DNA of 32,000 bases from Acaryochloris thomasi RCC1774 (lineage in GTDB: Bacteria > Cyanobacteriota > Cyanobacteriia > Thermosynechococcales > Thermosynechococcaceae), in contig NZ_PQWO01000018.1 of NCBI RefSeq assembly GCF_003231495.1, positions 61,285 to 93,284 on the forward strand. The letters are read 5' to 3'. The notes beneath the pieces are model-generated. The model did not search any database. It was not told the origin of the DNA and saw nothing but the letters and a program-made list of their open reading frames with translations. Shown here piece by piece: positions 16,864 to 29,330 of this stretch. Each line of letters begins with the position of its first letter. Position 1 is the stretch's first letter. The position numbers were made by a program, and so were the translations under genes.

Positions 16864-18129
16864 TTAGTTGAGAGGTTGGGCTTGATGGGAAGCTATCTGC
16901 GCTCGACCTGCTTTTTTCGCTTGATAGAGGGCGGTATCGGTGGCTGCGATCAATGCTGGGACCGTTAGCTCAGCGGTGGGGACTAGGGTGGAGATGCCAA
17001 TGCTCAGGGTGATGCGATCGCTCACACTAGAAGATTTATGGACCAGTGCTTGCTGATCTAGATCTGCTCTCAACTTCTCTGCCACCGCCATCGCTCCCTC
17101 AGAATTTGTGTTGGGTAAGATGATGGCAAATTCTTCTCCCCCGTAGCGCGCTGCTAAATCTAACGGACGCCTGATGGCCCCGTCAATGGTTTGTGCCACC
17201 ACCTGCAGGCAGTGATCTCCCTGCAAATGACCGTAGGTGTCGTTGTACTGCTTGAAATAATCGATGTCACAGAGCATCAGGGTCAAAGCTTTCTGATCCC
17301 TCACTGCCTGCTTCCAAGACTGTTCAAGATACTCATCAAAGCGGCGTCGATTGGCCAGCTTTGTTAAGCCATCCTGATTGGCAGCCAATGCTAACTGGCG
17401 ATTCAACTGATCGAGTTCTTGATTGGCAAGATCGAGGGCCTTATTGATTGCCTGTAGCTTTTCTTGGGTTTTAAGGCGGGCCTGGATTTCTGCTTCTAGC
17501 TGCTGATTCTTTGCCTCTAACTCTCGTGTGCGAATTTTGACGGACTCTTCTAGATTTCGGTTAAAATCCTGCAGCTTTTCATTGAGGCTGGCAATCTCCC
17601 GGCGATCTTCTTCAGCCGTGATAATGTCCCGGTAGGAACGGATCGCCGTAACTAATGTCGAGAATAATTTCTGCTGCGTTAGCTCAGTCTTGGTTCTATA
17701 GTCATTGATATCGTACCCCTTGATGATTGAGATCTCAGGCACTTCGCCCGGCTGGCCGGTTCGCAGAATGATGCGCACAAATAAATTGTGCAAGTTCTCA
17801 CGGATATATTTGACCAACTCTAGACCGGCCTGACTGGTTTCCATGACCACGTCAAGGAGCAATACGGCAGTATCGGGGTGCTGGCTCAGCATCGCTTGAG
17901 CTTCTTGCCCAGAGTAAGCAGAGATGATTTCTAAGGTCCTGTTCTCAAAAGTAAAATTTTTGAGCGCAAGGCGGGTGACCTCATGTACCTGTCTTTCGTC
18001 ATCGACAACAAGTATTTTCCAGGGCGTTTCGCTGTTGCTGGCAGCGGTGTCTTGGTCGTCCGAGAATAGAGGCTCATCTTCAAAGTCAAGGCGTTCATTG
18101 GCAGTGACTGAATCGTTAGACTGAGGCAT
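16864..18129 (-). CDS. response regulator with coiled-coil linker and GGDEF diguanylate cyclase output
   Basis: Acidic N-terminal tail. REC: ILVVDDE, LLLDVVME (D93), RIILRTGQPG, YDINDYRTKTEL. Long heptad region: LEAKNQQLEAEIQARLKTQEKLQAINKALDLANQELDQLNRQL. GGDEF domain with active site RYGGEEF and an intact I-site RPLD five residues upstream. The start overlaps the upstream gene by 14 nt. Confidence 0.9.
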   Translation of the reverse strand: MPQSNDSVTANERLDFEDEPLFSDDQDTAASNSETPWKILVVDDERQVHEVTRLALKNFTFENRTLEIISAYSGQEAQAMLSQHPDTAVLLLDVVMETSQAGLELVKYIRENLHNLFVRIILRTGQPGEVPEISIIKGYDINDYRTKTELTQQKLFSTLVTAIRSYRDIITAEEDRREIASLNEKLQDFNRNLEESVKIRTRELEAKNQQLEAEIQARLKTQEKLQAINKALDLANQELDQLNRQLALAANQDGLTKLANRRRFDEYLEQSWKQAVRDQKALTLMLCDIDYFKQYNDTYGHLQGDHCLQVVAQTIDGAIRRPLDLAARYGGEEFAIILPNTNSEGAMAVAEKLRADLDQQALVHKSSSVSDRITLSIGISTLVPTAELTVPALIAATDTALYQAKKAGRAQIASHQAQPLN

Positions 18130-19390
18130 GGGTTCCCTCGTCTGTAATCTGTAAGGGTAAGTTCAGAATAAACTTGCTTCCTGAGCCTAAGGTGCTTTCA
18201 CACCGGATGGTGCCCCGAAGGTTTTGCGTCACAATGTTGTGAACAATATGGAGCCCCAAGCCACTACCGCCGCGCTCTCGAGCAGTTGTGAAGAACGGCT
18301 CAAAAATCTTTGCTTGGTGGCTCTCAGAGATACCACACCCATCATCGGCGTACTCTAAGATCACCTGCTCTTCTTGCTGATGCAATGAAAAACTGAGGTG
18401 CCCCTGCTCTCCTGGGCCATAGGCATGTCGTGTAGAGTTGATCACCAAGTTTGTCACAATCTGAGAAAGCGCTCCAGGATAACTTACCATCTTCAGCGAA
18501 ATATCTCCGTCAACGGTCGTTTGGTGTTTTGTGGCCTTAAGGTGAGGCTCTAGGCTAGTGAGCACACTGTTGATATAGGGGATGATTGTAAAGGGTCGCT
18601 TCTCAAAACTGGTCTGATCTACGGCAACTTGCTTGAAGCTTTGAATAAGCTGGGCTGCTCTGTCAAGGTTGCTCAATACGAGACGACTACTATCTGCTGC
18701 AGTTTCGAGATAGCCAGAAAGGGTTGAACGCTTTAAGCTACCTTGCTTATAGAGCTCGTCGAAGGCTTGTGTTTCATTCTGCAGCACGGACGCTGCCAAG
18801 AGGGCGTTGCCGACGGGAGTATTGATCTCATGGGCGACACCCGCTACAAGCTGGCCCAGGGCTGCCATTTTCTCCGACCGGATTAGCTCTGTCTGGGTTT
18901 CCTGTAGCTCCTGTAGGGTTTGGGTTAACTCACGGGTTCGTGCCTGTACCTTTTGCTCTAGCTGGTGCTGATACTCATAGAGCTGTTGCTCTTGGATATA
19001 GCTGTTGAGTGCTTCTCGCACAGTGAGCTGCAGGTCGGCAGGCTGCCAGGGTTTGGCGATATATCGATAGAGCTGAGCTGTATTAATCGCATTGGTTATC
19101 CCATCTACCCCTGCTTGCCCCGTTAGCATCACGGTTAGGGTTTTGGGTGAGAGTTCGTTGACCTGTCGCAGCACCTCGTCACCCTTTAGATCGGGCATCA
19201 GATAGTCAGCAATGATGACAGCCACATTGCACTGGTCCTGCACTAAATCTTTGACAAGTTCAACGGCTTCTACGCCCCCAACTGCGGTTTCTAGCTCATA
19301 GCTCTCCTCAAAGACTTCAGAAAGCTCTCGCCGCAGACTATCAAGAACGGCGGGTTCGTCATCAACGCACACGATCACAGGTTTTGACAT
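18116..19390 (-). CDS. hybrid histidine kinase: N-terminal receiver, coiled coil, DHp and HATPase_c
   Basis: REC: VCVDDE, VIIADYLMPDLKGDE (D62), MLTGQAG, AKPWQ. H-box SEKMAALGQLVAGVAHEINTPVG (His187, codon 18832-18830). HATPase: NLVINSTRHA, DDGCGIS, FEPFFTTARERGGSGLGL. Confidence 0.9.
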   Translation of the reverse strand: MSKPVIVCVDDEPAVLDSLRRELSEVFEESYELETAVGGVEAVELVKDLVQDQCNVAVIIADYLMPDLKGDEVLRQVNELSPKTLTVMLTGQAGVDGITNAINTAQLYRYIAKPWQPADLQLTVREALNSYIQEQQLYEYQHQLEQKVQARTRELTQTLQELQETQTELIRSEKMAALGQLVAGVAHEINTPVGNALLAASVLQNETQAFDELYKQGSLKRSTLSGYLETAADSSRLVLSNLDRAAQLIQSFKQVAVDQTSFEKRPFTIIPYINSVLTSLEPHLKATKHQTTVDGDISLKMVSYPGALSQIVTNLVINSTRHAYGPGEQGHLSFSLHQQEEQVILEYADDGCGISESHQAKIFEPFFTTARERGGSGLGLHIVHNIVTQNLRGTIRCESTLGSGSKFILNLPLQITDEGTHASV

Positions 19391-19393
19391 GGA

Positions 19394-19786
19394 TTACTGG
19401 GGAAGGGCCGATTGAATTGCTTGAATTAAGTCCTGCTCTTGCCAAGGCTTTGCTAGGCAGGTATGGAGGTTCGCTTGATCATGAGCTCGCTCAACCGCGT
19501 CGTGATCAGCTTGCCCTGTCAACATAATTTTAACCACGCCGGGGAAACGCTGATGGACGTCAATCAGGAGTTCGTCGCCTTTGGCTCCCGGCATTAGCCA
19601 ATCAGACACGATCACTAATAGATCTGTCCCTTCGCCCTGGAGTTCTTCGATAATTTCTAGGGCTTCGCTGGCATTCTCTGCCGTTTCGTAGAGATAGGTA
19701 TCATCGAAGGCTGTCTGGAGCTGTCGCAGTAGGCTATTGAGGATGATCGCTTCGTCATCAACGCAAAGAATCGCTAGTTTAGACAT
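19394..19786 (-). CDS. single-domain (CheY-like) response regulator
   Basis: 130 aa. LCVDDE, VIVSDWLMPGAKGDE (D62), MLTGQAD, AKPWQ. Clearly paralogous to the REC domain of the next gene. Its ATG (19786-19784) overlaps the upstream stop in an 8-nt overlap (ATGTCTAA). Confidence 0.9.
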   Translation of the reverse strand: MSKLAILCVDDEAIILNSLLRQLQTAFDDTYLYETAENASEALEIIEELQGEGTDLLVIVSDWLMPGAKGDELLIDVHQRFPGVVKIMLTGQADHDAVERAHDQANLHTCLAKPWQEQDLIQAIQSALPQ

Positions 19787-22700
19787 GATGGTTTCCGGGT
19801 TGAGGATTCATGGGTAAAGACACGATGAAGGTCGTCTGCGAGGGTATCGATTCAAAGGTGATGGTGCCTTGATGCTTATCGATGATCTTTTTGACAATAT
19901 CGAGTCCCAGTCCGCTGCCTTCGCCAGGGGGCTTGGTTGTAAAGAAAGGCTCAAAAATGTTCGCTTGGACCTCTGGAGGGATGCCACTACCGCTGTCGGT
20001 GATTTTTACCTGTGCGCTGCCGCCGAGTTCCTGCAGGCTGACCTCCAATGTGCCTTTGTAGTCCATGGCCTGTAGGGCATTGTGAATCAGATTCGTCCAC
20101 ACTTGGTTGAGTTCATCGGCATAGCACTTTACGGGAGGGATGGCATCGAGGCTACGAATTACTGTGACGCCGTGCTTGATTTGGTTCTGGTAAAGGGTGA
20201 GGACGGCTTCAATGCCATCTGTAAGGTTGACCGTCATCATTTCGCCGCTGTGGTCGTAGCGGGCGTAGGTTTTGAGGGCAAACACGATCTTGGCGGCGCG
20301 ATCGCTAGCGCTGTTGATGTCTCGGGCGCTCTCTTGCACCCGCGTAAATTGACGCGCCATTTTTAGAAGCGGTTCGCTACTCGGATTTGTCAGCAAGGGC
20401 AGTAGGGCATCGAGATCGCTGTAGATGTTCAGGTCAATAAGCAAGCTAGCCAGATCGCTGGCGTTTGCAATTTCATGGTGGCCCAGTTGCTTGGCTAGGT
20501 TTTTGCGTGCTTGACGACGCTCCCGCCCTGAGAGCTTGGTGGTTGACTGGAGCGATCGCTGGAGCAGGCTTTGAAACTGCTGCTCTTGTTCTGGGGAGAG
20601 GGTTCGAAAGAAGTGGGGGAGCGTTTGTAGGTTGTTGTGCAAGAAGTTATTGATGTACTGAATAGAGGAGCCAATGGCACCCAGGGGCGTATTAATCTCG
20701 TGGGCGATACCGGCAATAAGCTGTCCCAGAGCGGCCATCTTTTCGGACTGAACCAGTTCTTGTTGAGTGAGCTGTAGTTCTTTGACGGTTTGAGAAAGGG
20801 TTTGGGTACGCTCATCGACTTTTTGCTCTAGGTTGGCGTAGAGACGAGCGTTGTCAATTGCGATCGCAACCTGTCCCGACAGCAGCTGCAGTAGTTCTAA
20901 TCGATCGGGGGTAAAAGCACTGGTGGTTAAATTATTTTCCAGATAGACCATCCCACTGAGCTGTCCCAGGTTGAGGAGTGGCATACACAAAATTGACTGG
21001 GTCTGTCGCTCTTTGATGTAGGGATCTTGAGTGAAATCACCGGCTTGACTGGCATGGGATAAAACCACGCTCTCCTGCGTGCGGTTGACGTAGTTCAATA
21101 GCGTCTGAGGAACTTGCCCCACTATCGGTGTGGACTGGAGGACGCTATAGGTCTCAGACTCGGTGTTGGCAGAGGCCTCAATCAGGAGACCGTCGCTGTT
21201 AAGAATGAGATAGCCAACCTGGGCACCGGCATTGCGCACCAGGATTTGAATGAGAGTCATCAACAATTTGTCGAGGACAATCTCCGTTGAGATGGCCTGA
21301 GATGCCTGCAGAACAGTGGCTAAATCTAGCGATTGGCTGGTACGAACGGTGTGAGTTGCTGTGGAAGAAGAAGAAGGTCCCGATGCCGTTGTGAAGACTG
21401 CCTTAGAAAGGTTAGGGTACTGCTGTTCTAGCTGCTCGACCTTTGCGGTTGCCCCCCACCGGAAGTAGCCATAGTAGGCATCTTTCAAATAGACCTGGGC
21501 AATCTTGTCTCGATTTTGCCGCTGGTAGAACTGAGCTGCAAGTTCATTCGCAAGCGCTTCTTCTTGAGGGTAGTCGTGGGCTTGGGCCGATGTGATCGCA
21601 TGATCATAGGCCACCCCTGCCTCTGCTATTTGTCCTAAACAGCGATAGCGTTCTGCTTCGACTAGCTCATATTTATGCCGGTGGTTCTCTGGGGCATGTT
21701 CAGCCCACTGCTGCAGCTGTTGCTGGTTGGCATTGACCTGCTCTAGTGCCTGCTGCTGCTCCGATTCATAAAGGTGCTCAAAACGGGCCAGCCGAGTTAA
21801 AGAGTCATAGAAGTTCAGCACGGCAATGGTGTAGGCGGCGGTCATTCCATCGGCGTTGTTTTCTGCCAACTGTGTACAGCTTAAAGCGGTTTCGTAGTCC
21901 GCCAGTAAATAGCAGAGCATTGCTTTATGCGTGTAGAAGAAGGCCAGAGCCAGTTTGTTGTCGGCACTCTCCACCGTGACCTCGGCTTCCTGGAGAAATT
22001 CTCCGTTGAGTTTGCTTAGGTCAGAGGCTTGGCCTCTGAGGTTTGCGAGGGTCTGCTGATAAATCTTCAGGTATAGATGGCAGGCGGCTTGCTTTAGGGT
22101 TGCGATCGCAAAATTATAGGCAGCCATCCGAGTCGCTAACGCTTCTAGTTCTCGACCCGTGAGTAGACTGTGCATGGACTCCCAGCAGAGCGAGTAGCAG
22201 GCATATTCCACATCGCCTGTGTCCAAGCCGATTTGATAGCCGCTGTGAAGATCGGCAATCGTAGCGCTGAGCGGATCCTCCCAGTGACGCACAAACGCAT
22301 TGAAGACAAACATTACCCGACTTTTCGCCTGCTTGGCCTCGAACTTATCCACCACCTGCAGCGCCAAGCGCCCAAACTGGTAGCCCGAAGCAATATCGCC
22401 CACCGCCCCGCACAGCGTGATGCCGTAGCAGTCATAGGCAAAAGCCGAAGCTGCTGTATTGCCATACTCTAACGAGAGTCGAATTTGGGTGAGGTTGCTG
22501 AGAATAAACCGTTCAAAAGCGGCCTGATAGCCAGAAGATAAAATGTCCGATAAAATCTGCATTGCCGCCAGCTTTTCAGGATCCGTCATCGCAGGCAAAT
22601 CAATCAAACCTTCGATGGAGCGCTGATGCTGTAGAGCCTGAGTTCGCTGTAGCTCAAGCTGTAAATTTTCTGGCGTCGGTTCCGGGAACTGAATGCCTAG

Positions 22701-25250
22701 CTGCCCTAAAATTTCAAAACCAATATCGGTTGCTTCAAAATGTCGATTCTGAGACGAACAGGCCAGAATCTTCACCCGATAGACTTTGACTTTATCTAGA
22801 ACACAGCGGGCCTTCTGCAGAATGATTGCCGTTAGCTGCTCTTGCTTTTCGTAGTCCTGATTCAGATAGGCCGCCTCACTGGCCGCCTCATAAAGCCCCA
22901 GGGCTAATTCATAGGTGTTTTGCCAGCCATCCGGTCCTAAAAGCGTCACCCCTGTTAGTAGATAGTTCATCGCAGCTTGGTAAGCGGTTGCCGACTTCGC
23001 CTTCTGACCCGCCTGAAAATTGAGCTGCGCTAACTGCTGTCGTTCAGCCGGTTCAGAGATCAGATCGAGTGCTTGATTGAGATGATCCACGACCTCAAAG
23101 ATGCGGTCTGCCAGACCTTCTTGGGTCACGCCGTCTCTGAGCAGACGACCAATACGGAGATGAACCGGTGCTTTTTGTTCTGGGGTAATCAGGGCATAGG
23201 CAGCCTGCTGGATGCGGTCATGGCCGAAGCGAAAGCGTTCAATTGTTAAATCTGCTGTCAATTCAGACAGGGGAATCACTAAACCACACTGAATCGTCGG
23301 CTTGAGATCAGCAAAAACGGTTTTGAAAGACTTCTGTTGAATAATGGCAAGGGTCGCCAGATCAAACTGAGCGCCGACGCAGGCCGCCAGCCGCAGTCCT
23401 TCTTGGGTGGCGCTTGACAGCTTCTGGAGTTTGCCAATCAGCAGCTCAATGACGTTATCGGTCAAATCTTGGGCCTGAATCTGCTCCATGTCCCATTCCC
23501 AGAGGCGGGATGCTTCATTAAACTGCAGCAGTCTTTCACTGTGGAGACTCTTGAGAAATTCGTTGACGAAAAAGGGATTGCCTTCTGTTTTCTGAAGCAC
23601 TAATTCCGCGAGGGGATCTAGTTCAGCCTGACTGTGCTGCAGTGTATCCGTGATTAGCTGACTGAGGTGCGTCAGCGATAGGGGGGCCAGGGTAATCGTA
23701 TTGACTGTCACACTCTGGGTCTCAAAGTGGTTTAACAGGCTCATTAATGGATGCGCCGCACTGACTTCATTGTCACGGTAGGCACCGATCACAAGCAGCG
23801 ATCGCATCTTACTATCGGTCATCATTCGCTGCATCAGCTTCAGGCTGGCAGAATCAGCCCACTGCAAATCGTCTAGGAACAGCACTAGCGGATGCTCGGG
23901 ATCACAGAAAACCCGAATGAAACTTTGAAAAACCAGATTGAAGCGGTTTTGAGCCTCTGTTGGACCCAGCTCTGGTACCGGGGGCTGCTTTCCTGTAATC
24001 AGAGCTATTTCAGGGATCACATCAATGACCACCTGACCGTTTGGTCCCAAAGCTGCTAGCAAGCGCTGCCGCCACTGGGCTAGCTGGGTCTCGCTTTCCG
24101 TTAAAAGCTGTTTGGCAAGGCTGCGAAAGGCAGCAATCACTGCGGAGTAGGGCACATCCCGCTGAAACTGGTCATATTTACCGGCGATGAAGTAGCCGCG
24201 CTTCTCGGTAATGGGCTTATGGACCTCCGCCACTAGAGAAGACTTGCCAATCCCGGAATACCCTGCCACCAGCATTAATTCGCTGGTGCTGGTGGATTGG
24301 CTGATGCGCTCGAAAGCCGCCAGCAATATTGCTTTCTCGGCCTCTCGCCCATAGAGCTTTTGTGGAATCTGGAAGCGACCGGATAAATCTTGAGTGCCGA
24401 GGACGAAAGGTGCAATCTTACCTGTGCTGCGTAACTGCTCTCGGCAGTTTTCCAAATCAGCCTGGAGGCCCGCCGCGTTCTGATAGCGGTCCTCAGCCGT
24501 TTTAGCCATCAGCTTCAGCGTCAGATTAGACAAGACCTGCGGCACCGCAAGATTAATTTGATGCGGTGGCTTGGGTTGATGGGCAATATGACAGTGAACC
24601 AGTGCCAAAGCATCTTCGGTCGGGAATGGTAACTGCCCCGTCAGCAGCTCATAGAATGTAATGCCGAGAGAATAGAAGTCCGTTCGGTAGTCTAGGGAGC
24701 GATTCATCCGTCCGGTTTGCTCCGGTGACAGATAGGCCAGCGTGCCTTCTAATACCCGTGGGTTTTTGAGGGTGGGGTTCTCACGGCTCAACTGGGTTGA
24801 AATCCCAAAGTCGATGATTTTAAGCTGTCCTGAGGCTGGGTTGACAATGATATTGCTGGGATTAATATCTTTGTGAATGACGTTACGGCTGTGAATATGC
24901 CCCAGGATTTCGACAATCTTGAGAGCTAAATCTAGAAACTCCTCCAGCGGCACTGCCTGCCCTTGGAACCACTCTTTGAGGGATTGCCCTCCAATGTCTT
25001 CGAGCACCATCGCTAAAGTGCGCTGATAGGGTTCTAACCCATAAACCTGAACTGTACCTTCGATGTCAAGATTGCTCGTGATTTCATATTCTTGGCGATA
25101 GCGGGTCAGTTCGGCCGAGGTGGGATAGTCTTCTTTCAAGATTTTGATAATGACAGGCTGATCAGGGTCGCCTCGATGACCCCGATAGACTAATGAATTC
25201 GCGCTCTCATAAATGTGCTTAGTCAAATTACAGCCGACAACACCCGTCAT
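19779..25250 (-). CDS. multidomain Ser/Thr protein kinase, AAA_16/STAND-type P-loop NTPase, helical/TPR-like region, GAF and histidine kinase (HstK-like dual kinase)
   Basis: 1823 aa. STK: VIIK (K36), HKDINPSN (D128, N133), DFG (D147), LAYLSPE. P-loop: Walker A GYSGIGKS (K336, codon 24245-24243) and Walker B LVLFLDD (455-461). Long helical repeat region. GAF-like segment (about 1290-1450). Coiled coil. H-box SEKMAALGQLIAGIAHEINTPLG (His1517, codon 20702-20700). HATPase_c: NLIHNALQAM, DSGSGIP, FEPFFTTKPPGEGSGLGL. Confidence 0.9.
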   Translation of the reverse strand: MTGVVGCNLTKHIYESANSLVYRGHRGDPDQPVIIKILKEDYPTSAELTRYRQEYEITSNLDIEGTVQVYGLEPYQRTLAMVLEDIGGQSLKEWFQGQAVPLEEFLDLALKIVEILGHIHSRNVIHKDINPSNIIVNPASGQLKIIDFGISTQLSRENPTLKNPRVLEGTLAYLSPEQTGRMNRSLDYRTDFYSLGITFYELLTGQLPFPTEDALALVHCHIAHQPKPPHQINLAVPQVLSNLTLKLMAKTAEDRYQNAAGLQADLENCREQLRSTGKIAPFVLGTQDLSGRFQIPQKLYGREAEKAILLAAFERISQSTSTSELMLVAGYSGIGKSSLVAEVHKPITEKRGYFIAGKYDQFQRDVPYSAVIAAFRSLAKQLLTESETQLAQWRQRLLAALGPNGQVVIDVIPEIALITGKQPPVPELGPTEAQNRFNLVFQSFIRVFCDPEHPLVLFLDDLQWADSASLKLMQRMMTDSKMRSLLVIGAYRDNEVSAAHPLMSLLNHFETQSVTVNTITLAPLSLTHLSQLITDTLQHSQAELDPLAELVLQKTEGNPFFVNEFLKSLHSERLLQFNEASRLWEWDMEQIQAQDLTDNVIELLIGKLQKLSSATQEGLRLAACVGAQFDLATLAIIQQKSFKTVFADLKPTIQCGLVIPLSELTADLTIERFRFGHDRIQQAAYALITPEQKAPVHLRIGRLLRDGVTQEGLADRIFEVVDHLNQALDLISEPAERQQLAQLNFQAGQKAKSATAYQAAMNYLLTGVTLLGPDGWQNTYELALGLYEAASEAAYLNQDYEKQEQLTAIILQKARCVLDKVKVYRVKILACSSQNRHFEATDIGFEILGQLGIQFPEPTPENLQLELQRTQALQHQRSIEGLIDLPAMTDPEKLAAMQILSDILSSGYQAAFERFILSNLTQIRLSLEYGNTAASAFAYDCYGITLCGAVGDIASGYQFGRLALQVVDKFEAKQAKSRVMFVFNAFVRHWEDPLSATIADLHSGYQIGLDTGDVEYACYSLCWESMHSLLTGRELEALATRMAAYNFAIATLKQAACHLYLKIYQQTLANLRGQASDLSKLNGEFLQEAEVTVESADNKLALAFFYTHKAMLCYLLADYETALSCTQLAENNADGMTAAYTIAVLNFYDSLTRLARFEHLYESEQQQALEQVNANQQQLQQWAEHAPENHRHKYELVEAERYRCLGQIAEAGVAYDHAITSAQAHDYPQEEALANELAAQFYQRQNRDKIAQVYLKDAYYGYFRWGATAKVEQLEQQYPNLSKAVFTTASGPSSSSTATHTVRTSQSLDLATVLQASQAISTEIVLDKLLMTLIQILVRNAGAQVGYLILNSDGLLIEASANTESETYSVLQSTPIVGQVPQTLLNYVNRTQESVVLSHASQAGDFTQDPYIKERQTQSILCMPLLNLGQLSGMVYLENNLTTSAFTPDRLELLQLLSGQVAIAIDNARLYANLEQKVDERTQTLSQTVKELQLTQQELVQSEKMAALGQLIAGIAHEINTPLGAIGSSIQYINNFLHNNLQTLPHFFRTLSPEQEQQFQSLLQRSLQSTTKLSGRERRQARKNLAKQLGHHEIANASDLASLLIDLNIYSDLDALLPLLTNPSSEPLLKMARQFTRVQESARDINSASDRAAKIVFALKTYARYDHSGEMMTVNLTDGIEAVLTLYQNQIKHGVTVIRSLDAIPPVKCYADELNQVWTNLIHNALQAMDYKGTLEVSLQELGGSAQVKITDSGSGIPPEVQANIFEPFFTTKPPGEGSGLGLDIVKKIIDKHQGTITFESIPSQTTFIVSLPMNPQPGNHHV

Positions 25251-25605
25251 TCATCTGTCCTTAAACGCCGAAAGAGTATCTGGCCTCAGCAAAGCTATGG
25301 ATATTTGGCGTTGAGATCGCAGTCTTTTTGATCAGACTTAGCTAAACTCTCCGTGCAAATACTGAATTAGCAGGCCAGCTCTATAGTGGACGGCTGAAGC
25401 AGCAAACCTGACATCTAAGTCTACTTTTGTGATGTTGCCATGACGAAGTATTGAGCTGAATCTGTAAATTCTCTCAATTCGTTGGCGTTACGGCGATCAA
25501 GAGGGACTGAATAAACGGCATGCTGCCCGTCAGAAACGACAGTCTGTTAAACAAACAAGCGACCTTTACAACTGTTTGAATTCGGGGAACAGAGACAGGG
25601 GAAAT

Positions 25606-25709
25606 TTTTCGATCAAGATTGCTCAGAGACTGGGAACACTGAGTTTGAGAAACGGCACCTCAACGATTTTGACGATTGTGAGATTCACAAGACCCTAGTT
25701 TTCGATCAA
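25606..25709. promoter_or_regulatory. pair of 11-nt direct repeats TTTTCGATCAA (25606-25616 and 25699-25709) in the divergent kinase/lipoxygenase intergenic region; candidate operator
   Basis: Read directly. A shorter third copy, CGATCAAGA, lies at 25494-25502. The protein that would bind it is unknown. Confidence 0.25.
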
Positions 25710-25756
25710 AGATGTGCCTCTGCTTTCTTCTGTTTCCCAACGTGAGTAACTGATAC

Positions 25757-27745
25757 ATGCCCTCATCTTTTACAGCCCTGAATACTGAGTCTCTGAATGT
25801 TGTTCAGCCACCTGTGCCGGCTCTAAAGAAAACAGAGGCTCATCCTGAGCCTGTCCCCCACGCTCTCAGGACTGCTCGCAAAAAATATAAGTACAACTAC
25901 GCCCATATTGCGCCAGTCGCGATGGTAGACAAGCTGCCGCGCGAGGAGAGACCCAGTCTGGTCTGGTGGAGAAAGGTGATTCGGGTCATGCTCGAAATCT
26001 TTATCAACGCCATCGTTAGCAAGCGAGGTCATGTTGAAGAAGTACAGGCCCGTCACCATGTCGCCCACCTCGTCAGACAAACGGTGATCGATATCTTTCA
26101 GCAGGCAGATTTCAAAACGAAACTTCGGCTGGGTTGGCATCTGCTCAGAGCAGTTCCCCAACTCCTTTGGAAGGGATTCAGGTTGGGACTGCATGAGTGG
26201 GAAGATCTGGTTCTGAGTCTGATTTCAGAGGTCGAGAAAGATATTCTGCTGGCGCTCCACGGCGGCGTCAAGGCTCGCGTTGATCAAGACCGCCACTGTG
26301 TGACAGCCACGAGTCTGGAGGACTACAACAGGCAGTTTGCCACGATTGCACTACCTGCGATCGCAACTCATTTCCAAGAAGATGAATACTTCGCCTACCT
26401 ACGGATAGCGGGTCCCAATCCTACGATGCTTGAGCAGGTCCGCGTTTTGTTTGGCGACATCCTCAGCCAAAAATTTCCGGTGACAAACGATCACTATCAA
26501 GCCGTCATGGGCACTGATGATTCCCTGGAGAAAGCTTTAGAAGAGAGCCGCCTCTACATTGCGGACTACGCCATTCTGGCAGGAGCTATCAATGGCACCT
26601 ATCCTGGCACCCACCCCAAATATATTGAAGCGCCTCAGGCGCTATTTGCTGTCCCTCGGGGCGGTTCCGCATCACGAAACCTGCGGCCCATTGCGATTCA
26701 GTGTGGTCAGGTTTCGGGTACGAACGTACCAATTGTGACGCCCTCGACGAACGAATCCGAGCGATACGCTTGGGAAATGGCCAAGGCTGTGGTTCAGGTG
26801 GCCGATAGCAACTACCACGAAGCCATTGCCCACTTAGGTCGCACGCATCTGTTTATTGGCCCCTTTGCGATCGCAACCCATCGGCAACTTCTGCCGGAGC
26901 ATCCCCTTAGTGTTCTACTGCGCCCGCACTTTGAGGGCATGCTCAACATCAATGATGGGGCTCAAAATCTGCTTATGGCTCCCCGAGGTGGCGTTGATAA
27001 GAATTTGGCGGCTACGATTGACTGCGCGCGCGCAGCGACTGTCGCTGGCTTGCAGAGCTACGGCTTCAATAGCGCCATGCTGCCCAAACGGCTTGAGCAG
27101 CGCGGTGTTGCCGATCTAGAGGCATTCCCGGTCTATCCTTACCGCGATGATGCCCTTTTACTGTGGGATGCCATCAAAGACTGGGTTGCGGCTTACCTCG
27201 GTCTTCATTACCAAGACGATACCGCAGTCCAGCAGGATCAGGCGCTCCAGAACTGGGCAGCAGAGCTGATTGCCTTTGATGGCGGTCGCGTCGTTGACTT
27301 CGGTGAAGACGGTGAGATTCGGACTCTCTCATACCTGATTGATGCGGTGACGTTAATCGTTTTTACTGCCAGCGCCCAACATGCTGCTGTCAACTTTCCG
27401 CAGGGAGATGTGATGACCTACGCTCCGGCGATGCCTCTGGCAGGATATGCTCCGGCTCATCCGCTCACCACCGCTAGCGAAGCAGATTATTTTGAGCAGC
27501 TTCCGCCGCTGCATCAGGCACAGGGACAGCTTGAGCTGACCTATCTGCTAGGACAGGTCTATCACACGGTACTGGGTCAGTATGACTTGGGCTGGTTTCG
27601 TGACGGGCAAGAGCAGAGCGCCCTCCAAGACTTTCAAGAGAGATTGGTGGAGATTGAAGATGCGATCGCAACCCGTAACCAAACCCGTCCCTATCCCTAC
27701 TGCTATCTGCAGCCTTCCAAAATCCCCCAAAGCATCAATATTTAA
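25757..27745 (+). CDS. lipoxygenase (bacterial type, no PLAT domain; non-haem iron dioxygenase)
   Basis: LOX signatures: YLRIAGPNP; WEMAKAVVQVAD; HEAIAHLGRTH (His354, His359); QHAAVNFPQ (His542, Asn546); C-terminal IPQSINI with a terminal Ile662 carboxylate ligand. 662 aa. The N-terminal ~190 aa look helical rather than beta-barrel. Confidence 0.9.
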   Translation: MPSSFTALNTESLNVVQPPVPALKKTEAHPEPVPHALRTARKKYKYNYAHIAPVAMVDKLPREERPSLVWWRKVIRVMLEIFINAIVSKRGHVEEVQARHHVAHLVRQTVIDIFQQADFKTKLRLGWHLLRAVPQLLWKGFRLGLHEWEDLVLSLISEVEKDILLALHGGVKARVDQDRHCVTATSLEDYNRQFATIALPAIATHFQEDEYFAYLRIAGPNPTMLEQVRVLFGDILSQKFPVTNDHYQAVMGTDDSLEKALEESRLYIADYAILAGAINGTYPGTHPKYIEAPQALFAVPRGGSASRNLRPIAIQCGQVSGTNVPIVTPSTNESERYAWEMAKAVVQVADSNYHEAIAHLGRTHLFIGPFAIATHRQLLPEHPLSVLLRPHFEGMLNINDGAQNLLMAPRGGVDKNLAATIDCARAATVAGLQSYGFNSAMLPKRLEQRGVADLEAFPVYPYRDDALLLWDAIKDWVAAYLGLHYQDDTAVQQDQALQNWAAELIAFDGGRVVDFGEDGEIRTLSYLIDAVTLIVFTASAQHAAVNFPQGDVMTYAPAMPLAGYAPAHPLTTASEADYFEQLPPLHQAQGQLELTYLLGQVYHTVLGQYDLGWFRDGQEQSALQDFQERLVEIEDAIATRNQTRPYPYCYLQPSKIPQSINI

Positions 27746-27782
27746 CCCCTAGTTCCCTACCCACCCCCAGAGGACAATTTTC

Positions 27783-29330
27783 ATGGTCTTGGACCTTTCC
27801 ACCTCCAGTCAAGCCCCCCGGCAATCGCTTCGCGCGCTAATCTGGAACCGTTTTCTGCAACCCCTACTGCAGAGAATATTCAGATGGCTGACCGCTTCTA
27901 AAGCCCAGCCCTTCGAAGATATCCCAGGGCCGACCCCGATCTTTCCGACTGGGAACGTTTTAGACTTTCAAAAAGATCCCACCTGGGAAGTCTTGGGTAA
28001 CTACGCCCAACAATACGGAAACGTCGCTCGCTTCTGGATGCTGTTTCGACCCTGCCTAGCCGTTAACGATCCAAAGCTAATTCACCAAGTTCTTTCAGGG
28101 GTGGGGGAACAGTCACCGGAAGTCGCAGAAAGCCGCTGTCCCCTGCACAATAACCCAATCTACAAGTTCTATAAAAACCAGCCGCGCAAAGCGCTGCGGC
28201 CCATGCTGACCGACACCAATCCCTTTGAAGCTGCAGCTGCAGATGCTCACTGGAAAGATTTGAAGCAGAACCATCCTTTCAGCATGGATTACTTTGATGA
28301 CTGGCTCGGGTCGCAGATCGAACCCCTCCATGCCTTCATAGAAACAAGAGCGACAGAACTGGTCGCAGCCTCTAACCAAGCGGGTGAATTATCGGCCTAT
28401 GACGCCATTCAAAAGCTGACCTTTGACGGATTTTCGTTAGCAACCGTGGGGCAAGTTTTCCCGGACGAAGTTTTTGAGCAGTTTAACTCCATGTGCCAGA
28501 CCGGTACGAGTCGGATGACGCGCTCGACCTTGGCAACATGGCTGATTCCAGAAAAGCCGTGGGATCGTACCTATCGCAAAGTAAGCAAAGCCTGGTTCAA
28601 CCGCTTTGAACAGATCGTCAGCTTAGAAGAAGCGCCAGCCAACTCGCTGCTAGGCTGGGTGCTTCGCAAAGGCGGCACTAATTTTGAGGCCGAAAAGCTG
28701 CGTAATTTTTGTGCCGGTGTCTATCCCGGTGGAGCCGTCTCTACCCCCAGCGGTATTACGTCAGCGCTCCATCTTCTTCATCAGCACCCAGAAACTCTGG
28801 CCGCTCTCAAAGCAGAAGTCAAAGACTTCTTTGCTGGTCCCCTGACGTTAGAGCGACTGGAAGGCTGCACTCAGCTTGATCAGGTGATGCGTGAATCGCT
28901 ACGGCTCTGGCCTGCCGTCCCGTTTTTCCTACGGACGGTTAATCAAGGTGGTGCCGAATTAGCAGGGCACTCCATTCCAGCAGGTACCCCCATTTTTATG
29001 AGTAACTGGTCGCTGCAGCGCCTTAGCGATCATTGGTCAGAGCCAGAGACTTTCAACCCAGCCCGATGGGATGCAGAGACCTGCCGTCAGAACGACTGGG
29101 GAAGTGACTACTTCTTTCCCTTTGGACGGGGCGATCGGGCCTGCATTGGTCAATATTTTGCACGTTATTTTATGAAGCTTGTGTTAGCGGTCTTAGTCTC
29201 AAAGTTTGGAGTGACCTTTGGTGATCAATCCCCTGAGCAAGAGTTCTTCTTCGGCGTCGCGGTTCCGCGCCAGTTGAAGGCACAATTTATTTACTCGAGC
29301 AAAGATTTGCCAAAATATTCTGGGGATTGA
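27783..29330 (+). CDS. cytochrome P450 with canonical Cys haem loop but non-canonical I-helix
   Basis: Pro-rich hinge DIPGPTPIFPTGNVLDF. K-helix ExxR (RESLRL). PERF-like FNPARW. Haem loop FGRGDRACIGQYFA (Cys454, codon 29142-29144). The I-helix position reads GGAVST (28728-28745) instead of (A/G)Gx(D/E)T(T/S). AGAGGA at 27769-27774 sits 8 nt before the ATG. Confidence 0.9.
   Translation: MVLDLSTSSQAPRQSLRALIWNRFLQPLLQRIFRWLTASKAQPFEDIPGPTPIFPTGNVLDFQKDPTWEVLGNYAQQYGNVARFWMLFRPCLAVNDPKLIHQVLSGVGEQSPEVAESRCPLHNNPIYKFYKNQPRKALRPMLTDTNPFEAAAADAHWKDLKQNHPFSMDYFDDWLGSQIEPLHAFIETRATELVAASNQAGELSAYDAIQKLTFDGFSLATVGQVFPDEVFEQFNSMCQTGTSRMTRSTLATWLIPEKPWDRTYRKVSKAWFNRFEQIVSLEEAPANSLLGWVLRKGGTNFEAEKLRNFCAGVYPGGAVSTPSGITSALHLLHQHPETLAALKAEVKDFFAGPLTLERLEGCTQLDQVMRESLRLWPAVPFFLRTVNQGGAELAGHSIPAGTPIFMSNWSLQRLSDHWSEPETFNPARWDAETCRQNDWGSDYFFPFGRGDRACIGQYFARYFMKLVLAVLVSKFGVTFGDQSPEQEFFFGVAVPRQLKAQFIYSSKDLPKYSGD

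What the first reader, a model, noticed from the sequence alone, without database searches (positions are those of the whole stretch)
25757..29330. Lipoxygenase plus atypical cytochrome P450 cassette: candidate undescribed cyanobacterial oxylipin pathway
A complete lipoxygenase (25757-27745) is followed on the same strand, after only 37 nt, by a P450 (27783-29330). The gap contains a Shine-Dalgarno-like AGAGGA and no hairpin or T-tract. The pair is insulated by a 506-bp upstream intergenic region and about 170 bp of non-coding DNA downstream, so it looks like a two-gene operon. Lipoxygenases produce fatty-acid hydroperoxides. The known enzymes that consume these are CYP74 P450s in plants (allene oxide synthase, hydroperoxide lyase, divinyl ether synthase) and catalase-related haem domains fused to LOX in corals and some cyanobacteria. 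Here the partner is a separate P450 that is not CYP74-like in its haem loop yet lacks the O2-activating I-helix residues (see the next finding). That points to a third, independent solution for hydroperoxide conversion. To my knowledge no cyanobacterial LOX-P450 pair has been characterised biochemically. I cannot check this against the literature from here.
Basis: partly seen in the sequence, partly recalled or inferred. Interest (0 to 1): 0.8.

Follow-up and report, generated by a model that had tools for sequence, protein, structure and literature searches.

The report
Lipoxygenase with dedicated partner P450
A cyanobacterial lipoxygenase gene is followed by a cytochrome P450 from a small, unstudied family that sits next to, or is fused to, lipoxygenases in five bacterial phyla and often beside a giant signalling kinase, so it probably marks an undescribed bacterial pathway for oxidised-lipid signals.

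Summary
In Acaryochloris thomasi RCC1774, a complete iron lipoxygenase (25757-27745) is followed after 37 nt by an intact P450 (27783-29330). The gap has an AGAGGA and no terminator.

The pairing is not an accident. In 41 genomic loci encoding relatives of this P450, 27 have a lipoxygenase gene directly adjacent. These span Cyanobacteriota, Planctomycetota, Spirochaetota, Myxococcota and Alphaproteobacteria, in three gene orders. Natural P450-LOX fusion proteins also exist. The reverse does not hold: only 3 of the 80 closest metagenomic LOX loci carry the P450, so the P450 is the dependent partner.

The P450 family is small, about 100 representatives among 1.84 billion. It has an ordinary haem loop, so it is not CYP74. 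Its I-helix is altered family-wide: the acid is never present and the Thr is always replaced, usually by Ser.

About half the loci, this window included, also carry an adjacent Ser/Thr-kinase/AAA_16 protein. Here that kinase heads a phosphorelay ending in a diguanylate cyclase.

The P450's chemistry is untested. Hydroperoxide rearrangement is the leading reading, but some clusters also encode a catalase-related AOS-like domain, which weakens the case that the P450 is the sole hydroperoxide converter. I found no published description. Verdict: new variant of a known kind, interest about 0.7.

The parts
25757..27745 (+). Iron lipoxygenase, 662 aa, of the P. aeruginosa LoxA type, with an N-terminal helical domain instead of a PLAT domain. 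Iron ligands are H354 and H359 (26816-26833), H542 and N546 (27380-27394) and the C-terminal I662. The Coffa-site residue is A402 (26948-26965), which predicts an S-specific enzyme.
   Evidence: PF00305 E 5.5e-61. PDB 8x8f/4g32/4rpe at about E 1e-111, aligned over residues 44-662. Invariant columns in the 15-sequence LOX alignment. Motif coordinates. The S-specificity is an inference from the Ala/Gly rule (own knowledge).
27746..27782 (+). 37-nt LOX-P450 intergenic gap with the Shine-Dalgarno-like AGAGGA (27769-27774) 8 nt before the P450 ATG. No hairpin or T-tract.
   Evidence: Sequence; terminator scan. In relatives the LOX-P450 gaps mostly run from -3 to 111 nt.
27783..29330 (+). Cytochrome P450, 515 aa, member of a small LOX-linked family. 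Motifs: PGP hinge 27921-27938, ExxR 28893-28904, PxRW 29058-29069, canonical haem loop FPFGRGDRACIG 29115-29150 (Cys454).
   Evidence: PF00067 E 1.1e-47. AF2 model pLDDT 86.8, pTM 0.87. Foldseek best hits are P450 BM3, CYP3A4, CYP97C1 and CYP184A1 with oleic acid, TM about 0.7. Only 101 representatives reach E<=1e-30 among 1.84e9.
28722..28751 (+). I-helix signature Y-P-G-G-A-V-S-T-P-S. It aligns to the canonical A-G-x-[DE]-T motif as G316-G317-A318-V319-S320, so the acid is replaced by a hydrophobic residue and the Thr by Ser.
   Evidence: Residue-level alignments to CYP24A1, CYP97A3 and 7wzl. Census of 101 family sequences: position 319 is never D/E; position 320 is Ser in 93 of 101 and never Thr; G317 is present in 99 of 101.
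25251..25756 (.). 506-bp divergent intergenic region between the kinase operon and LOX. It contains the conserved 10-mer TGGGAACACT (25631-25640, + strand) about 125 nt upstream of the LOX ATG. This is a candidate promoter or operator of the LOX-P450 unit.
   Evidence: TGGG[AC]A[CT]ACT occurs at the equivalent place upstream of LOX (or of the LOX remnant) in 7 of 7 Acaryochloridaceae-type loci: window, L001, L002, L003, L004, L022, L126. This holds whatever gene lies upstream. No Rfam family matches.
19779..25250 (-). 1823-aa multi-domain sensor kinase, divergent from LOX. Domains: Ser/Thr protein kinase (18-255), AAA_16 STAND-type ATPase (298-488), GAF (1326-1465), HisKA (1508-1565), HATPase_c (1711-1815).
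   Evidence: Pfam. Full-length orthologues (59-81% identity) lie beside the P450 in L001, L003, L004, L005, L006 and L022. A 35%-identical protein (over 1499 aa) does so in Leptospirales L012. Pkinase+AAA_16(+TPR) proteins lie beside the P450 in Planctomycetota.
16864..19786 (-). Three genes downstream of the kinase: response regulator (19394-19786), response-regulator/His-kinase hybrid (18116-19390) and response-regulator/GGDEF diguanylate cyclase (16864-18129).
   Evidence: Pfam. The same four-gene kinase operon lies directly upstream of, and co-directional with, LOX-P450 in L126, and upstream of the LOX remnant plus P450 in L001.

Best explanation
The window carries a two-gene oxylipin unit. 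The S-type bacterial lipoxygenase oxygenates a polyunsaturated fatty acid, free or in a lipid, to a hydroperoxide. The downstream P450 belongs to a small family that has evolved as a dedicated lipoxygenase partner, and it converts that product into a secondary oxylipin. The most likely mode is direct haem-catalysed rearrangement of the hydroperoxide without O2, NAD(P)H or a redox partner, as in CYP74, thromboxane synthase and the fungal dioxygenase-P450 fusions. The family-wide I-helix motif G-G-x-hydrophobic-Ser would replace the O2-activating acid/Thr pair. The product is probably a signal or stress lipid rather than bulk metabolism, because the unit is genomically tied to a STAND-type Ser/Thr kinase. 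In this genome that kinase feeds a His-Asp phosphorelay ending in a c-di-GMP synthase. Shown here: gene integrity, family assignment, conserved linkage, fusions and the I-helix signature. Inferred: co-transcription, substrate, the hydroperoxide-rearranging chemistry and any signalling role. My sub-probabilities: LOX and P450 act in one pathway, 0.9; the P450 acts directly on the hydroperoxide without a redox partner, about 0.5; the kinase link reflects sensing or control of the lipid product, about 0.3.
For: (1) Linkage. 27 of 41 genomic loci encoding family members have a LOX or divergent LOX gene directly adjacent: Cyanobacteriota 7/10, Spirochaetota 6/6, Myxococcota 7/9, Planctomycetota 5/14, Alphaproteobacteria 1/1 and one unclassified. 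The orders are LOX>P450, P450>LOX and divergent, with gaps mostly from -3 to 111 nt. A 28th locus (L001) keeps the LOX start and C-terminal remnants around a deletion.
(2) Fusions. P0143 (P450+LOX, 935 aa) is seen on 4 contigs from 2 sources. P0118 (P450+PLAT+LOX, 1200 aa) is seen once.
(3) Asymmetry. Only 3 of the 80 closest metagenomic LOX loci carry the P450, which fits an accessory enzyme acting on the LOX product.
(4) Co-evolution. Pairwise identities of P450 and LOX correlate at r=0.94; 0 of 2000 Mantel permutations reached that value.
(5) I-helix. The acid is absent in 101 of 101 members, and the Thr position is Ser in 93 of 101 and never Thr. Ordinary P450s just outside the family keep AGHETT or AGSDTT.
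(6) No ferredoxin or reductase recurs in the neighbourhoods, and no family member was seen fused to a reductase.
(7) The nearest structures bind fatty acids: BM3, and CYP184A1 with oleate.
(8) Companion genes in other lineages are lipid-oxidation enzymes: a catalase-related AOS-like domain, an OYE reductase, a MonCI-type flavin epoxidase, a fatty-acid desaturase and a Tle1-like phospholipase.
(9) Kinase link. A Pkinase+AAA_16 protein lies adjacent in 21 of 41 loci plus the window. It is kept next to the P450 through an inversion (window versus L126/L001) and where no LOX gene lies in the sampled flank (L005, L006, Schlesneria).
Against: The Thr position keeps a hydroxyl (Ser). Some true monooxygenases also lack the I-helix acid (CYP51, CYP7A1; own knowledge). 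The haem loop and overall fold are those of ordinary monooxygenases. In Kuenenia (L027, L028) and L045, the cluster also encodes a domain homologous to coral catalase-type allene oxide synthase (E 3.5e-19 to PDB 1u5u). That domain is the expected hydroperoxide converter there, so the P450 may perform another step. Thirteen of 41 loci show no LOX in the sampled flank (three of these are truncated contigs), so some family members may work on other substrates or on non-enzymatic lipid peroxides. Co-transcription in the window is inferred only from spacing and the absence of a terminator. The literature check covers only open-access papers and bioRxiv.
Confidence: 0.55

Rival explanations
1. The P450 is an ordinary O2- and ferredoxin-dependent monooxygenase. 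It hydroxylates or epoxidises the LOX product (or the fatty acid before LOX) using the cell's general ferredoxin/FNR. The cassette would then make di- or tri-oxygenated fatty acids by two successive oxygenations.
For: The haem loop, ExxR and PxRW motifs are canonical. The closest sequences and structures are monooxygenases: CYP24A1, CYP97A3, CYP3A4, CYP46A1, BM3. A hydroxyl is retained at the Thr position (S320). A catalase-related AOS-like domain coexists with the P450 in Kuenenia and L045, which suggests the P450 is not the hydroperoxide converter there. Bacterial P450s commonly lack adjacent redox partners (own knowledge).
Against: The I-helix acid is lost in all 101 members, and the Thr position is strictly Ser and never Thr. 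That pattern is not expected if ordinary O2 activation were simply maintained. Fusions are to LOX, a catalase-related domain or cNMP-binding domains, never to a reductase. Every characterised natural fusion of a fatty-acid dioxygenase with a haem domain uses the hydroperoxide directly (own knowledge: coral AOS-LOX, fungal PpoA and linoleate diol synthases).
Confidence: 0.3
2. The P450's primary partner is the STAND kinase, not the LOX. It processes or senses lipid peroxides from any source, including non-enzymatic photo-oxidation, as part of a membrane-damage signalling or detoxification module. LOX is an optional add-on that supplies substrate.
For: The P450 stays beside the kinase where no LOX gene lies in the sampled flank: L005 and L006 (133-nt kinase-P450 gap in L005), the Schlesneria loci and L128. 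The same holds after a LOX deletion in L001. The kinase tracks the P450: 2 of 3 P450-bearing metagenomic LOX loci have it, against 2 of 77 without the P450. Leptospiraceae replace the kinase with a thioredoxin/AhpC-like protein plus a chemoreceptor. One family member is fused to cNMP-binding domains.
Against: LOX adjacency (27/41) is more frequent than kinase adjacency (21/41). P450-LOX fusions exist but no P450-kinase fusion was seen. Myxococcota and most Leptospiraceae loci have LOX but no such kinase. LOX may be encoded elsewhere in the LOX-less genomes, which I could not check.
Confidence: 0.12
3. The adjacency has no functional meaning. Two unrelated genes happen to lie together in Acaryochloris and were inherited together.
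For: Within Acaryochloridaceae alone, shared ancestry would explain the synteny (L002, L003, L004, L022).
Against: Adjacency recurs in five phyla with three different gene orders. It also appears as gene fusions. It survives rearrangement of the flanking kinase operon.
Confidence: 0.02

Closest known systems
Plant (and CYP74-clan) lipoxygenase pathway: LOX plus CYP74 allene oxide synthase, hydroperoxide lyase, divinyl ether synthase or epoxyalcohol synthase
   Same: A lipoxygenase is paired with a P450 whose I-helix no longer carries the O2-activating acid/Thr pair. The expected logic is that the LOX hydroperoxide is both substrate and oxygen donor (CYP74 properties as reviewed in PMC10813956).
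   Different: The window P450 has a canonical FxxGxRxCxG loop without the nine-residue CYP74 insertion (PMC10813956). Its I-helix motif is G-G-x-hydrophobic-Ser rather than the CYP74 groove. Its nearest sequences and structures are CYP3A, CYP97, CYP46, CYP102 and CYP184; no CYP74 appears among the top 60 profile hits or the top 50 structural hits. It is an independent P450 lineage, and its activity is untested.
Catalase-related haem partners of LOX: coral AOS-LOX fusion (PDB 1u5u, 3dy5) and the Acaryochloris marina catalase-LOX fusion
   Same: A dioxygenase and a haem protein are genetically coupled, up to covalent fusion. The present P450 family also occurs fused to LOX (P0118, P0143).
   Different: The haem partner here is a thiolate-ligated P450, not a Tyr-ligated mini-catalase, and the window encodes no catalase-related domain. 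In Kuenenia and L045 both partner types occur in one cluster, so they are not simple equivalents.
Fungal dioxygenase-P450 fusion enzymes (PpoA, linoleate diol synthases, DOX-AOS)
   Same: A non-CYP74 P450 domain is dedicated to the hydroperoxide made by a linked fatty-acid dioxygenase, with an atypical I-helix and no reductase (own knowledge; the theme is mentioned in PMC9579011 and PMC11719350).
   Different: The fungal dioxygenase is a haem (cyclooxygenase-like) enzyme, not a non-haem iron LOX. The organisms are eukaryotes, and the domain order is DOX-P450, whereas the bacterial fusions are P450-LOX.
Thromboxane synthase CYP5A1 (CYP3 clan) and prostacyclin synthase CYP8A1
   Same: These are otherwise ordinary-looking P450s with a normal haem loop that isomerise a lipid peroxide without O2 or a reductase and have lost the I-helix Thr (own knowledge). 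CYP3A enzymes are among the best sequence matches of the window P450.
   Different: Their substrate is the endoperoxide PGH2 from cyclooxygenase. No direct sequence comparison with CYP5A1 or CYP8A1 could be made here. The bacterial family loses the acid and keeps a Ser, which is the opposite of the pattern I recall for CYP5A1.
Pseudomonas aeruginosa LoxA (PDB 4g32) and characterised myxobacterial LOXs (M. xanthus MXAN_1744/1745, PMC5760719)
   Same: The window LOX is of this bacterial type: E about 1e-111, an N-terminal helical domain, and Ala at the Coffa site.
   Different: Those enzymes were studied alone. No partner P450 was reported in PMC5760719, which tested two unlinked putative 'thromboxane synthase' P450s and found no activity.
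Oxylipin-dependent quorum sensing of P. aeruginosa (PMC6377657)
   Same: It is a precedent that bacteria make oxylipins as signals that control group behaviour. It parallels the link seen here between an oxylipin cassette and a c-di-GMP-producing phosphorelay.
   Different: That system uses di-haem cytochrome c peroxidase-like diol synthases on oleic acid and a LysR-type regulator (own knowledge). It uses no LOX, no P450 and no STAND kinase.

Membership tests
Lipoxygenase (PF00305), iron type | Significant match to the LOX catalytic domain | tested here: met
   PF00305 E 5.5e-61, residues 193-643. PDB LOXs at about E 1e-112.
Lipoxygenase (PF00305), iron type | Five metal ligands: HxxxxH, HxxxN/H and the C-terminal Ile carboxylate | tested here: met
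   H354, H359, H542, N546 and the terminal ...SINI (I662) are present. They are invariant or nearly so in 15 LOXs from P450-linked loci.
Lipoxygenase (PF00305), iron type | Dioxygenase activity on 1,4-pentadiene fatty acids; regio- and stereospecificity | not testable with these tools
   Only a prediction is possible: Ala402 at the Coffa position suggests S-specificity (rule from own knowledge).
Cytochrome P450 superfamily (PF00067) | P450 fold with a Cys-ligand loop FxxGxRxCxG, ExxR and PERF-type motifs | tested here: met
   PF00067 E 1.1e-47. F447-G-R-G-D-R-A-C454-I-G, E371-S-L-R374 and P426-A-R-W429 are present. The AF2 model has pTM 0.87 and P450 structural hits at TM about 0.7.
CYP74 clan | Nine-residue insertion in the haem-binding loop (PMC10813956) | tested here: not met
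   The loop has canonical spacing with no insertion.
CYP74 clan | Closest relatives are CYP74 or CYP74-clan enzymes | tested here: not met
   The top 60 profile hits and top 50 Foldseek hits in the PDB are CYP24, CYP97, CYP3A, CYP46, CYP4, CYP102 and CYP184. No allene oxide synthase appears.
Redox-partner-independent, peroxide-rearranging P450s (functional class: CYP74, CYP5A1, CYP8A1, fungal DOX-CYP domains) | Loss of the I-helix acid/Thr pair used for O2 activation | tested here: inconclusive
   The acid is lost in 101 of 101 members. The Thr is never present but is replaced by Ser in 93 of 101, so a hydroxyl remains.
Redox-partner-independent, peroxide-rearranging P450s (functional class: CYP74, CYP5A1, CYP8A1, fungal DOX-CYP domains) | Genetic or physical coupling to the dioxygenase that makes the peroxide | tested here: met
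   27 of 41 loci have an adjacent LOX in five phyla. P450-LOX fusions P0143 and P0118 exist.
Redox-partner-independent, peroxide-rearranging P450s (functional class: CYP74, CYP5A1, CYP8A1, fungal DOX-CYP domains) | Turnover of the hydroperoxide without O2, NAD(P)H or a reductase | not testable with these tools
   This needs enzymology. The only indirect support is that no ferredoxin or reductase recurs in the neighbourhoods or fusions.
Pentalenene oxygenase (the name carried by the database record) | Score above the NCBIfam equivalog cut-off | tested here: not met
   NF045812 scores 79.4 bits against a cut-off of 800, and only the C-terminal third matches. The record name is an over-annotation.
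Two-gene operon | Same strand, short gap, ribosome-binding site, no intervening terminator, conserved pairing | tested here: met
Two-gene operon | A single transcript spanning 27746-27782 | not testable with these tools
   No transcript data are available.

The most novel reading that the evidence does not exclude
LOX, the G-G-x-hydrophobic-Ser P450 and the giant Ser/Thr-kinase/AAA_16 (STAND) protein together form a previously unrecognised, widely distributed bacterial lipid-mediator signalling module. The enzyme pair makes a specific oxylipin, or converts membrane lipid peroxides into one. The STAND kinase senses or controls it and relays the signal, in Acaryochloris through a His-Asp phosphorelay to c-di-GMP. 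This would be a prokaryotic counterpart of jasmonate or eicosanoid signalling, built around a third, independently evolved hydroperoxide-converting haem enzyme.
Probability: 0.3. Interest if true: 0.85.

Novelty: new variant of a known kind. Interest (0 to 1): 0.7.

Why it matters
Lipoxygenase hydroperoxides are turned into hormones and defence compounds by CYP74 P450s in plants, by catalase-like haem proteins in corals, and by P450 domains fused to haem dioxygenases in fungi. What bacteria do with their lipoxygenase products is largely unknown, and bacterial LOXs have so far been studied as stand-alone enzymes.

This cassette points to a defined, small P450 family as the missing downstream enzyme. 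Three things make it directly testable:
- a clear sequence signature in the I-helix;
- natural fusion proteins that argue for substrate hand-over between the two enzymes;
- a culturable organism that carries the same locus, Acaryochloris marina MBIC11017 (locus L003).

If the P450 rearranges hydroperoxides, it is an independent evolutionary origin of that chemistry and a new source of biocatalysts for oxylipins. If the kinase link is functional, it gives a handle on two open questions: what giant STAND kinases in cyanobacteria and planctomycetes respond to, and whether bacteria use LOX-derived lipids as signals.

Tried and rejected
- CYP74 membership: rejected on the haem-loop spacing and nearest relatives.
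- 'Pentalenene oxygenase' annotation: rejected (79 bits against a cut-off of 800).
- Anti-phage defence system: PADLOC gave nothing for LOX or P450, and only generic kinase-domain hits for the kinase.
- Other recurrent neighbours or redox partners: a Pfam census of 108 neighbouring proteins found no family in more than 3 loci, and no ferredoxin or reductase among the 25 most recurrent families listed.
- Structured RNA or terminator around the cassette: Rfam gave only a sub-threshold chance hit, and no inverted repeats were found.
- Global alignment of the upstream intergenic regions was uninformative. Only anchoring on the shared 10-mer revealed conserved blocks.
- Searching for more fusion proteins failed. 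The word-indexed database returned only P0118 itself and no new members with a broad family profile.
- The 361-aa protein between LOX and the P450-LOX fusion in L042 has only a very weak catalase hit (E 0.034) and no PDB match, so it stays unassigned.
- The FAD protein at window 15023-16546 is CrtI/CrtD-like and is not the MonCI-type epoxidase seen in planctomycete clusters. It is probably unrelated.
- Composition gives no sign of a recently acquired island: GC is 0.48-0.54 throughout and there is no tRNA.
- The two Acaryochloris marina LOX papers of the Brash laboratory could not be read because they are not held.

Full report
**What is there**

The coordinates and gene calls of the finding are correct.
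- ORF 25757-27745 (+) encodes 662 aa and ORF 27783-29330 (+) encodes 515 aa.
- The two are separated by 37 nt containing AGAGGA (27769-27774), 8 nt before the ATG.
- The upstream non-coding stretch is 506 bp and the downstream one 169 bp.
- A consensus scan finds no terminator-like site in the gap or after the P450, and no inverted repeats lie in either flank.
- The P450 is 100% identical to a protein of Acaryochloris thomasi RCC1774 that is annotated 'pentalenene oxygenase'. That name is unsupported: the NCBIfam equivalog scores 79 bits against a cut-off of 800.
- GC content is even across the window and there is no tRNA, so nothing suggests a recent island.

**The lipoxygenase**

It matches Pfam PF00305 at E 5.5e-61. 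Its best solved relatives are bacterial LOXs of the Pseudomonas aeruginosa type (8x8f, 4g32, 4rpe; about E 1e-111), with the alignment covering residues 44-662. The iron ligands H354, H359, H542, N546 and the C-terminal Ile are present. They are invariant or nearly so in an alignment of 15 LOXs taken from P450-linked loci. The Coffa position is Ala402, which by the Ala/Gly rule (own knowledge) predicts an S-specific enzyme.

**The P450**

It matches PF00067 at E 1.1e-47. An AlphaFold model built on 33 homologues is confident (pLDDT 86.8, pTM 0.87).
- Its structural neighbours are P450 BM3, CYP3A4, CYP97C1/A3 and CYP184A1 bound to oleic acid, with TM-scores around 0.7.
- A family profile hits CYP24A1, CYP97A3, CYP3A and CYP46A1 best.
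- No CYP74 enzyme appears among the listed matches.
- The haem loop F447-G-R-G-D-R-A-C454-I-G has canonical spacing. It therefore lacks the nine-residue insertion that characterises CYP74 (PMC10813956). It is not a CYP74-clan member.

The I-helix is unusual. Residue-level alignments place G316-G317-A318-V319-S320 opposite the canonical A-G-x-E/D-T. In 101 family sequences:
- the acid position is never Asp or Glu (Phe 38, Val 21, Ile 20, Tyr 9 and others);
- the Thr position is Ser in 93 and never Thr;
- the second Gly is present in 99.

Ordinary P450s just beyond the family boundary keep AGHETT or AGSDTT.

The family is small and discrete. An exhaustive phmmer search of 1.84 billion cluster representatives gives only 101 proteins at E<=1e-30.

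**Is the pairing meaningful?**

I fetched 41 genomic loci encoding family members with 10-kb flanks and searched them for LOX. Twenty-seven have a LOX, or a divergent PF00305 protein, directly next to the P450:

| Group | Loci with adjacent LOX |
|---|---|
| Cyanobacteriota (Acaryochloris incl. A. marina MBIC11017, Anabaena, Cyanothece, unnamed MAGs) | 7 of 10 |
| Leptospiraceae / Spirochaetota | 6 of 6 |
| Myxococcota | 7 of 9 |
| Planctomycetota (Gemmatales, Ca. Kuenenia) | 5 of 14 |
| Qipengyuania (Alphaproteobacteria) | 1 of 1 |
| Unclassified bacterium | 1 of 1 |

- Gene order varies: LOX then P450 in most groups, P450 then LOX in Leptospiraceae, Anabaena and Cyanothece, and divergent in L007.
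- Gaps are mostly between -3 and 111 nt.
- One apparently LOX-less locus (L001, P450 70% identical) still carries the LOX start codon region and a C-terminal LOX fragment flanking a deletion.
- Pairwise identities of the two proteins across loci correlate at r=0.94, with 0 of 2000 Mantel permutations reaching that value.

The family also contains natural fusions:
- P0143 is P450+LOX (935 aa) and was found on four contigs from two sources, with a second LOX gene two genes upstream.
- P0118 is P450+PLAT+LOX (1200 aa) and sits on a single 3.9-kb contig.

The dependence is one-sided. Among the 80 metagenomic loci most similar to the window LOX (39-60% identity), only three carry the P450. A broad LOX family with a narrow, LOX-bound P450 family is what one expects if the P450 is an accessory enzyme working on the LOX product.

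**A third conserved partner**

The 506-bp 'insulating' region is in fact a divergent promoter region. On the other side lies a 1823-aa protein with Ser/Thr kinase, AAA_16 (STAND-type ATPase), GAF, HisKA and HATPase_c domains. It is followed by a response regulator, a response-regulator/His-kinase hybrid and a response-regulator/GGDEF diguanylate cyclase.

Relatives of this kinase sit beside the P450 in many other loci:
- Full-length orthologues (59-81% identity) do so in six other cyanobacterial loci.
- A 35%-identical protein aligned over 1499 residues does so in a Leptospirales MAG.
- Pkinase+AAA_16+TPR proteins do so in Schlesneria, Zavarzinella, Gemmataceae and Kuenenia.
- In total this is 21 of 41 loci, plus the window.
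- Further examples came from independent look-ups: L045, L117, L120, L126 and L128.

In L126 the whole kinase operon is co-directional with LOX-P450 and immediately upstream of it, whereas in the window it is inverted. The association therefore survives rearrangement. In L005 and L006 and in Schlesneria, the kinase stays next to the P450 although no LOX is in the locus. Among the metagenomic LOX loci, two of the three with the P450 have such a kinase, against two of 77 without it. Leptospiraceae instead have P450-LOX followed by a thioredoxin/AhpC-like DUF6436 protein and a methyl-accepting chemotaxis protein. PADLOC gave only generic kinase-domain hits.

**Other cluster members elsewhere**

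No further family recurs widely, and no ferredoxin or reductase recurs. Lineage-specific companions are nevertheless lipid-oxidation enzymes:
- P0105 is the family P450 fused through a multi-pass membrane region to a domain homologous to the coral catalase-type allene oxide synthase (PDB 1u5u, E 3.5e-19). It is followed by a LOX and an Old-Yellow-Enzyme reductase, has a fatty-acid desaturase nearby and has a divergent Pkinase-AAA_16 gene.
- The same membrane+AOS-like protein precedes LOX-P450 in two Kuenenia loci.
- Planctomycete clusters add a flavin enzyme strongly similar to the polyene epoxidases MonCI and Lsd18 (E 3e-67).
- Anabaena and Cyanothece place a Tle1-like phospholipase upstream of P450-LOX.

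These contexts support an oxylipin-pathway reading. They also show that the P450 can coexist with a classical hydroperoxide-converting haem domain, so its step need not be the first one after LOX.

**How it most likely works**

*Shown:* two intact genes; their family assignments; a conserved and sometimes covalent LOX-P450 association; a family-wide I-helix change; a recurrent kinase neighbour.

*Inferred:* LOX makes an S-hydroperoxide of a C18 or C20 PUFA. The P450 binds that hydroperoxide at the haem and rearranges it without O2 or reducing equivalents, as in CYP74, thromboxane synthase and the fungal dioxygenase-P450 fusions. The widened G-G groove and the invariant Ser would take the place of the O2-activating machinery. 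The product would serve as a signal or stress lipid connected with the kinase/c-di-GMP system.

I put 0.9 on LOX and P450 acting in one pathway, about 0.5 on the redox-partner-independent chemistry, and about 0.3 on a functional kinase connection.

The main rival, at about 0.3, is an ordinary ferredoxin-dependent monooxygenase that further oxygenates LOX products. It is favoured by the normal haem loop, the retained hydroxyl and the coexistence with AOS-like domains. A second rival, at about 0.12, makes the kinase the primary partner and lipid peroxides of any origin the substrate.

**Literature**

Seven full-text searches of the held open-access and bioRxiv library found no description of a bacterial LOX paired or fused with a non-CYP74 P450.
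- A 2026 review of bacterial LOXs mentions P450s only as alternative biocatalysts (PMC13319228).
- The M. xanthus study characterised the LOXs MXAN_1744/1745 and tested two unlinked P450s without finding activity (PMC5760719).
- Reviews of octadecanoids and of the epoxyalcohol-synthase branch list only catalase-related partners for cyanobacteria (PMC11719350 and PMC10813956).
- Subscription-only papers, including the two A. marina LOX papers, could not be checked.

**Verdict**

The proposed chemistry remains a good but untested hypothesis. I classify this as a new variant of a known kind: a dioxygenase with a dedicated haem partner, here from an unrecognised P450 lineage with an unexpected conserved link to STAND kinases. 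Interest 0.7.

Noticed in passing
window 16864-25250 (- strand): A giant Ser/Thr-kinase/AAA_16/GAF/His-kinase protein, followed by a response regulator, a hybrid response-regulator/His-kinase and a response-regulator/GGDEF protein, lies divergent from LOX. Proteins of this kinase type are adjacent to the P450 family in 21 of 41 loci across Cyanobacteriota, Leptospirales and Planctomycetota, including loci without LOX.
   Followed up: yes
window 25631-25640 (+); L001 9631, L002 1586, L003 7709, L004 7685, L022 7671, L126 6787: A conserved 10-mer, TGGG[AC]A[CT]ACT, lies about 110-130 nt upstream of the LOX start in all seven Acaryochloridaceae-type loci, whatever gene lies upstream. Further conserved blocks sit nearer the ATG. 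It is a candidate promoter or operator of the LOX-P450 unit, and no Rfam family matches.
   Followed up: partly
L001 9780-9970: LOX has been deleted in this MAG. Only the first 31 codons (MLQSFDINNTKPQ..., then a stop) and a fragment matching LOX residues 601-624 remain, directly before an intact P450. The kinase operon is inverted relative to the window.
   Followed up: yes
P0143 (L042 8001-10808, L043 5523-8330); P0118 (L044 98-3700): Natural single-polypeptide fusions of the family P450 with a lipoxygenase. P0118 also has a PLAT domain. P0143 was seen on four contigs from two data sources, and P0118 only once.
   Followed up: partly
L045 8001-14329; L027 252-1082; L028 650-3160; L115 10053-10955: The family P450 is fused, via a multi-pass membrane region, to a domain homologous to coral catalase-type allene oxide synthase (PDB 1u5u, E 3.5e-19). 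It is followed by a LOX and an Old-Yellow-Enzyme reductase. The same membrane+AOS-like protein precedes LOX-P450 in Ca. Kuenenia.
   Followed up: partly
L027 4758-6206 (-), L028 6690-8165 (-), L020 16235-17644 (-), L021, L026, L040: A flavoprotein strongly similar to the polyether polyene epoxidases MonCI and Lsd18 (E 3e-67) sits next to the P450 or between the P450 and the kinase in Kuenenia, Schlesneria and a planctomycete MAG.
   Followed up: partly
L011 13354-15546; also L013, L017, L023: In Leptospiraceae, P450-LOX is followed by a thioredoxin/AhpC-like DUF6436 protein and a methyl-accepting chemotaxis protein. This is another signalling-type neighbour in place of the kinase.
   Followed up: no
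L129 7716-12465; L008 8707-13456; L032 7069-13514: In Anabaena and Cyanothece, a T6SS Tle1-like phospholipase gene precedes the P450 and a divergent LOX-like protein that Pfam only partly recognises. The arrangement resembles a lipase-dioxygenase-P450 cascade.
   Followed up: no
window 28131-28148 (P450 residues 117-122): An insertion specific to the cyanobacterial clade (residues about 108-128, model pLDDT below 50) carries a conserved S-[RK]-C-P-[LVF]-H. This Cys-Pro motif is reminiscent of haem-regulatory motifs.
   Followed up: no
P0130 (1239 aa, Logan contig of 4.5 kb): A distant family member is fused to two cyclic-nucleotide-binding domains and has apparently lost the haem-ligand Cys (loop reads APFGVGPQSGFG).
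   Followed up: no
L016, L019, L020, L021, L026 (e.g. L020 4323-9509, - strand): In the LOX-less Schlesneria loci, a 1000-2000-aa protein with no convincing Pfam match (weak DUF4175 only) is divergent from the P450. Its role is unknown.
   Followed up: no
window 27783-29330: The public record names this protein 'pentalenene oxygenase', but the NCBIfam equivalog scores 79 bits against a cut-off of 800. This is an annotation error that would hide the gene from oxylipin searches.
   Followed up: yes
window 29500-30099 (+): The gene downstream of the cassette is a Uma2-family putative endonuclease (PF05685, E 1.9e-33). It is not conserved next to the cassette in other loci.
   Followed up: no
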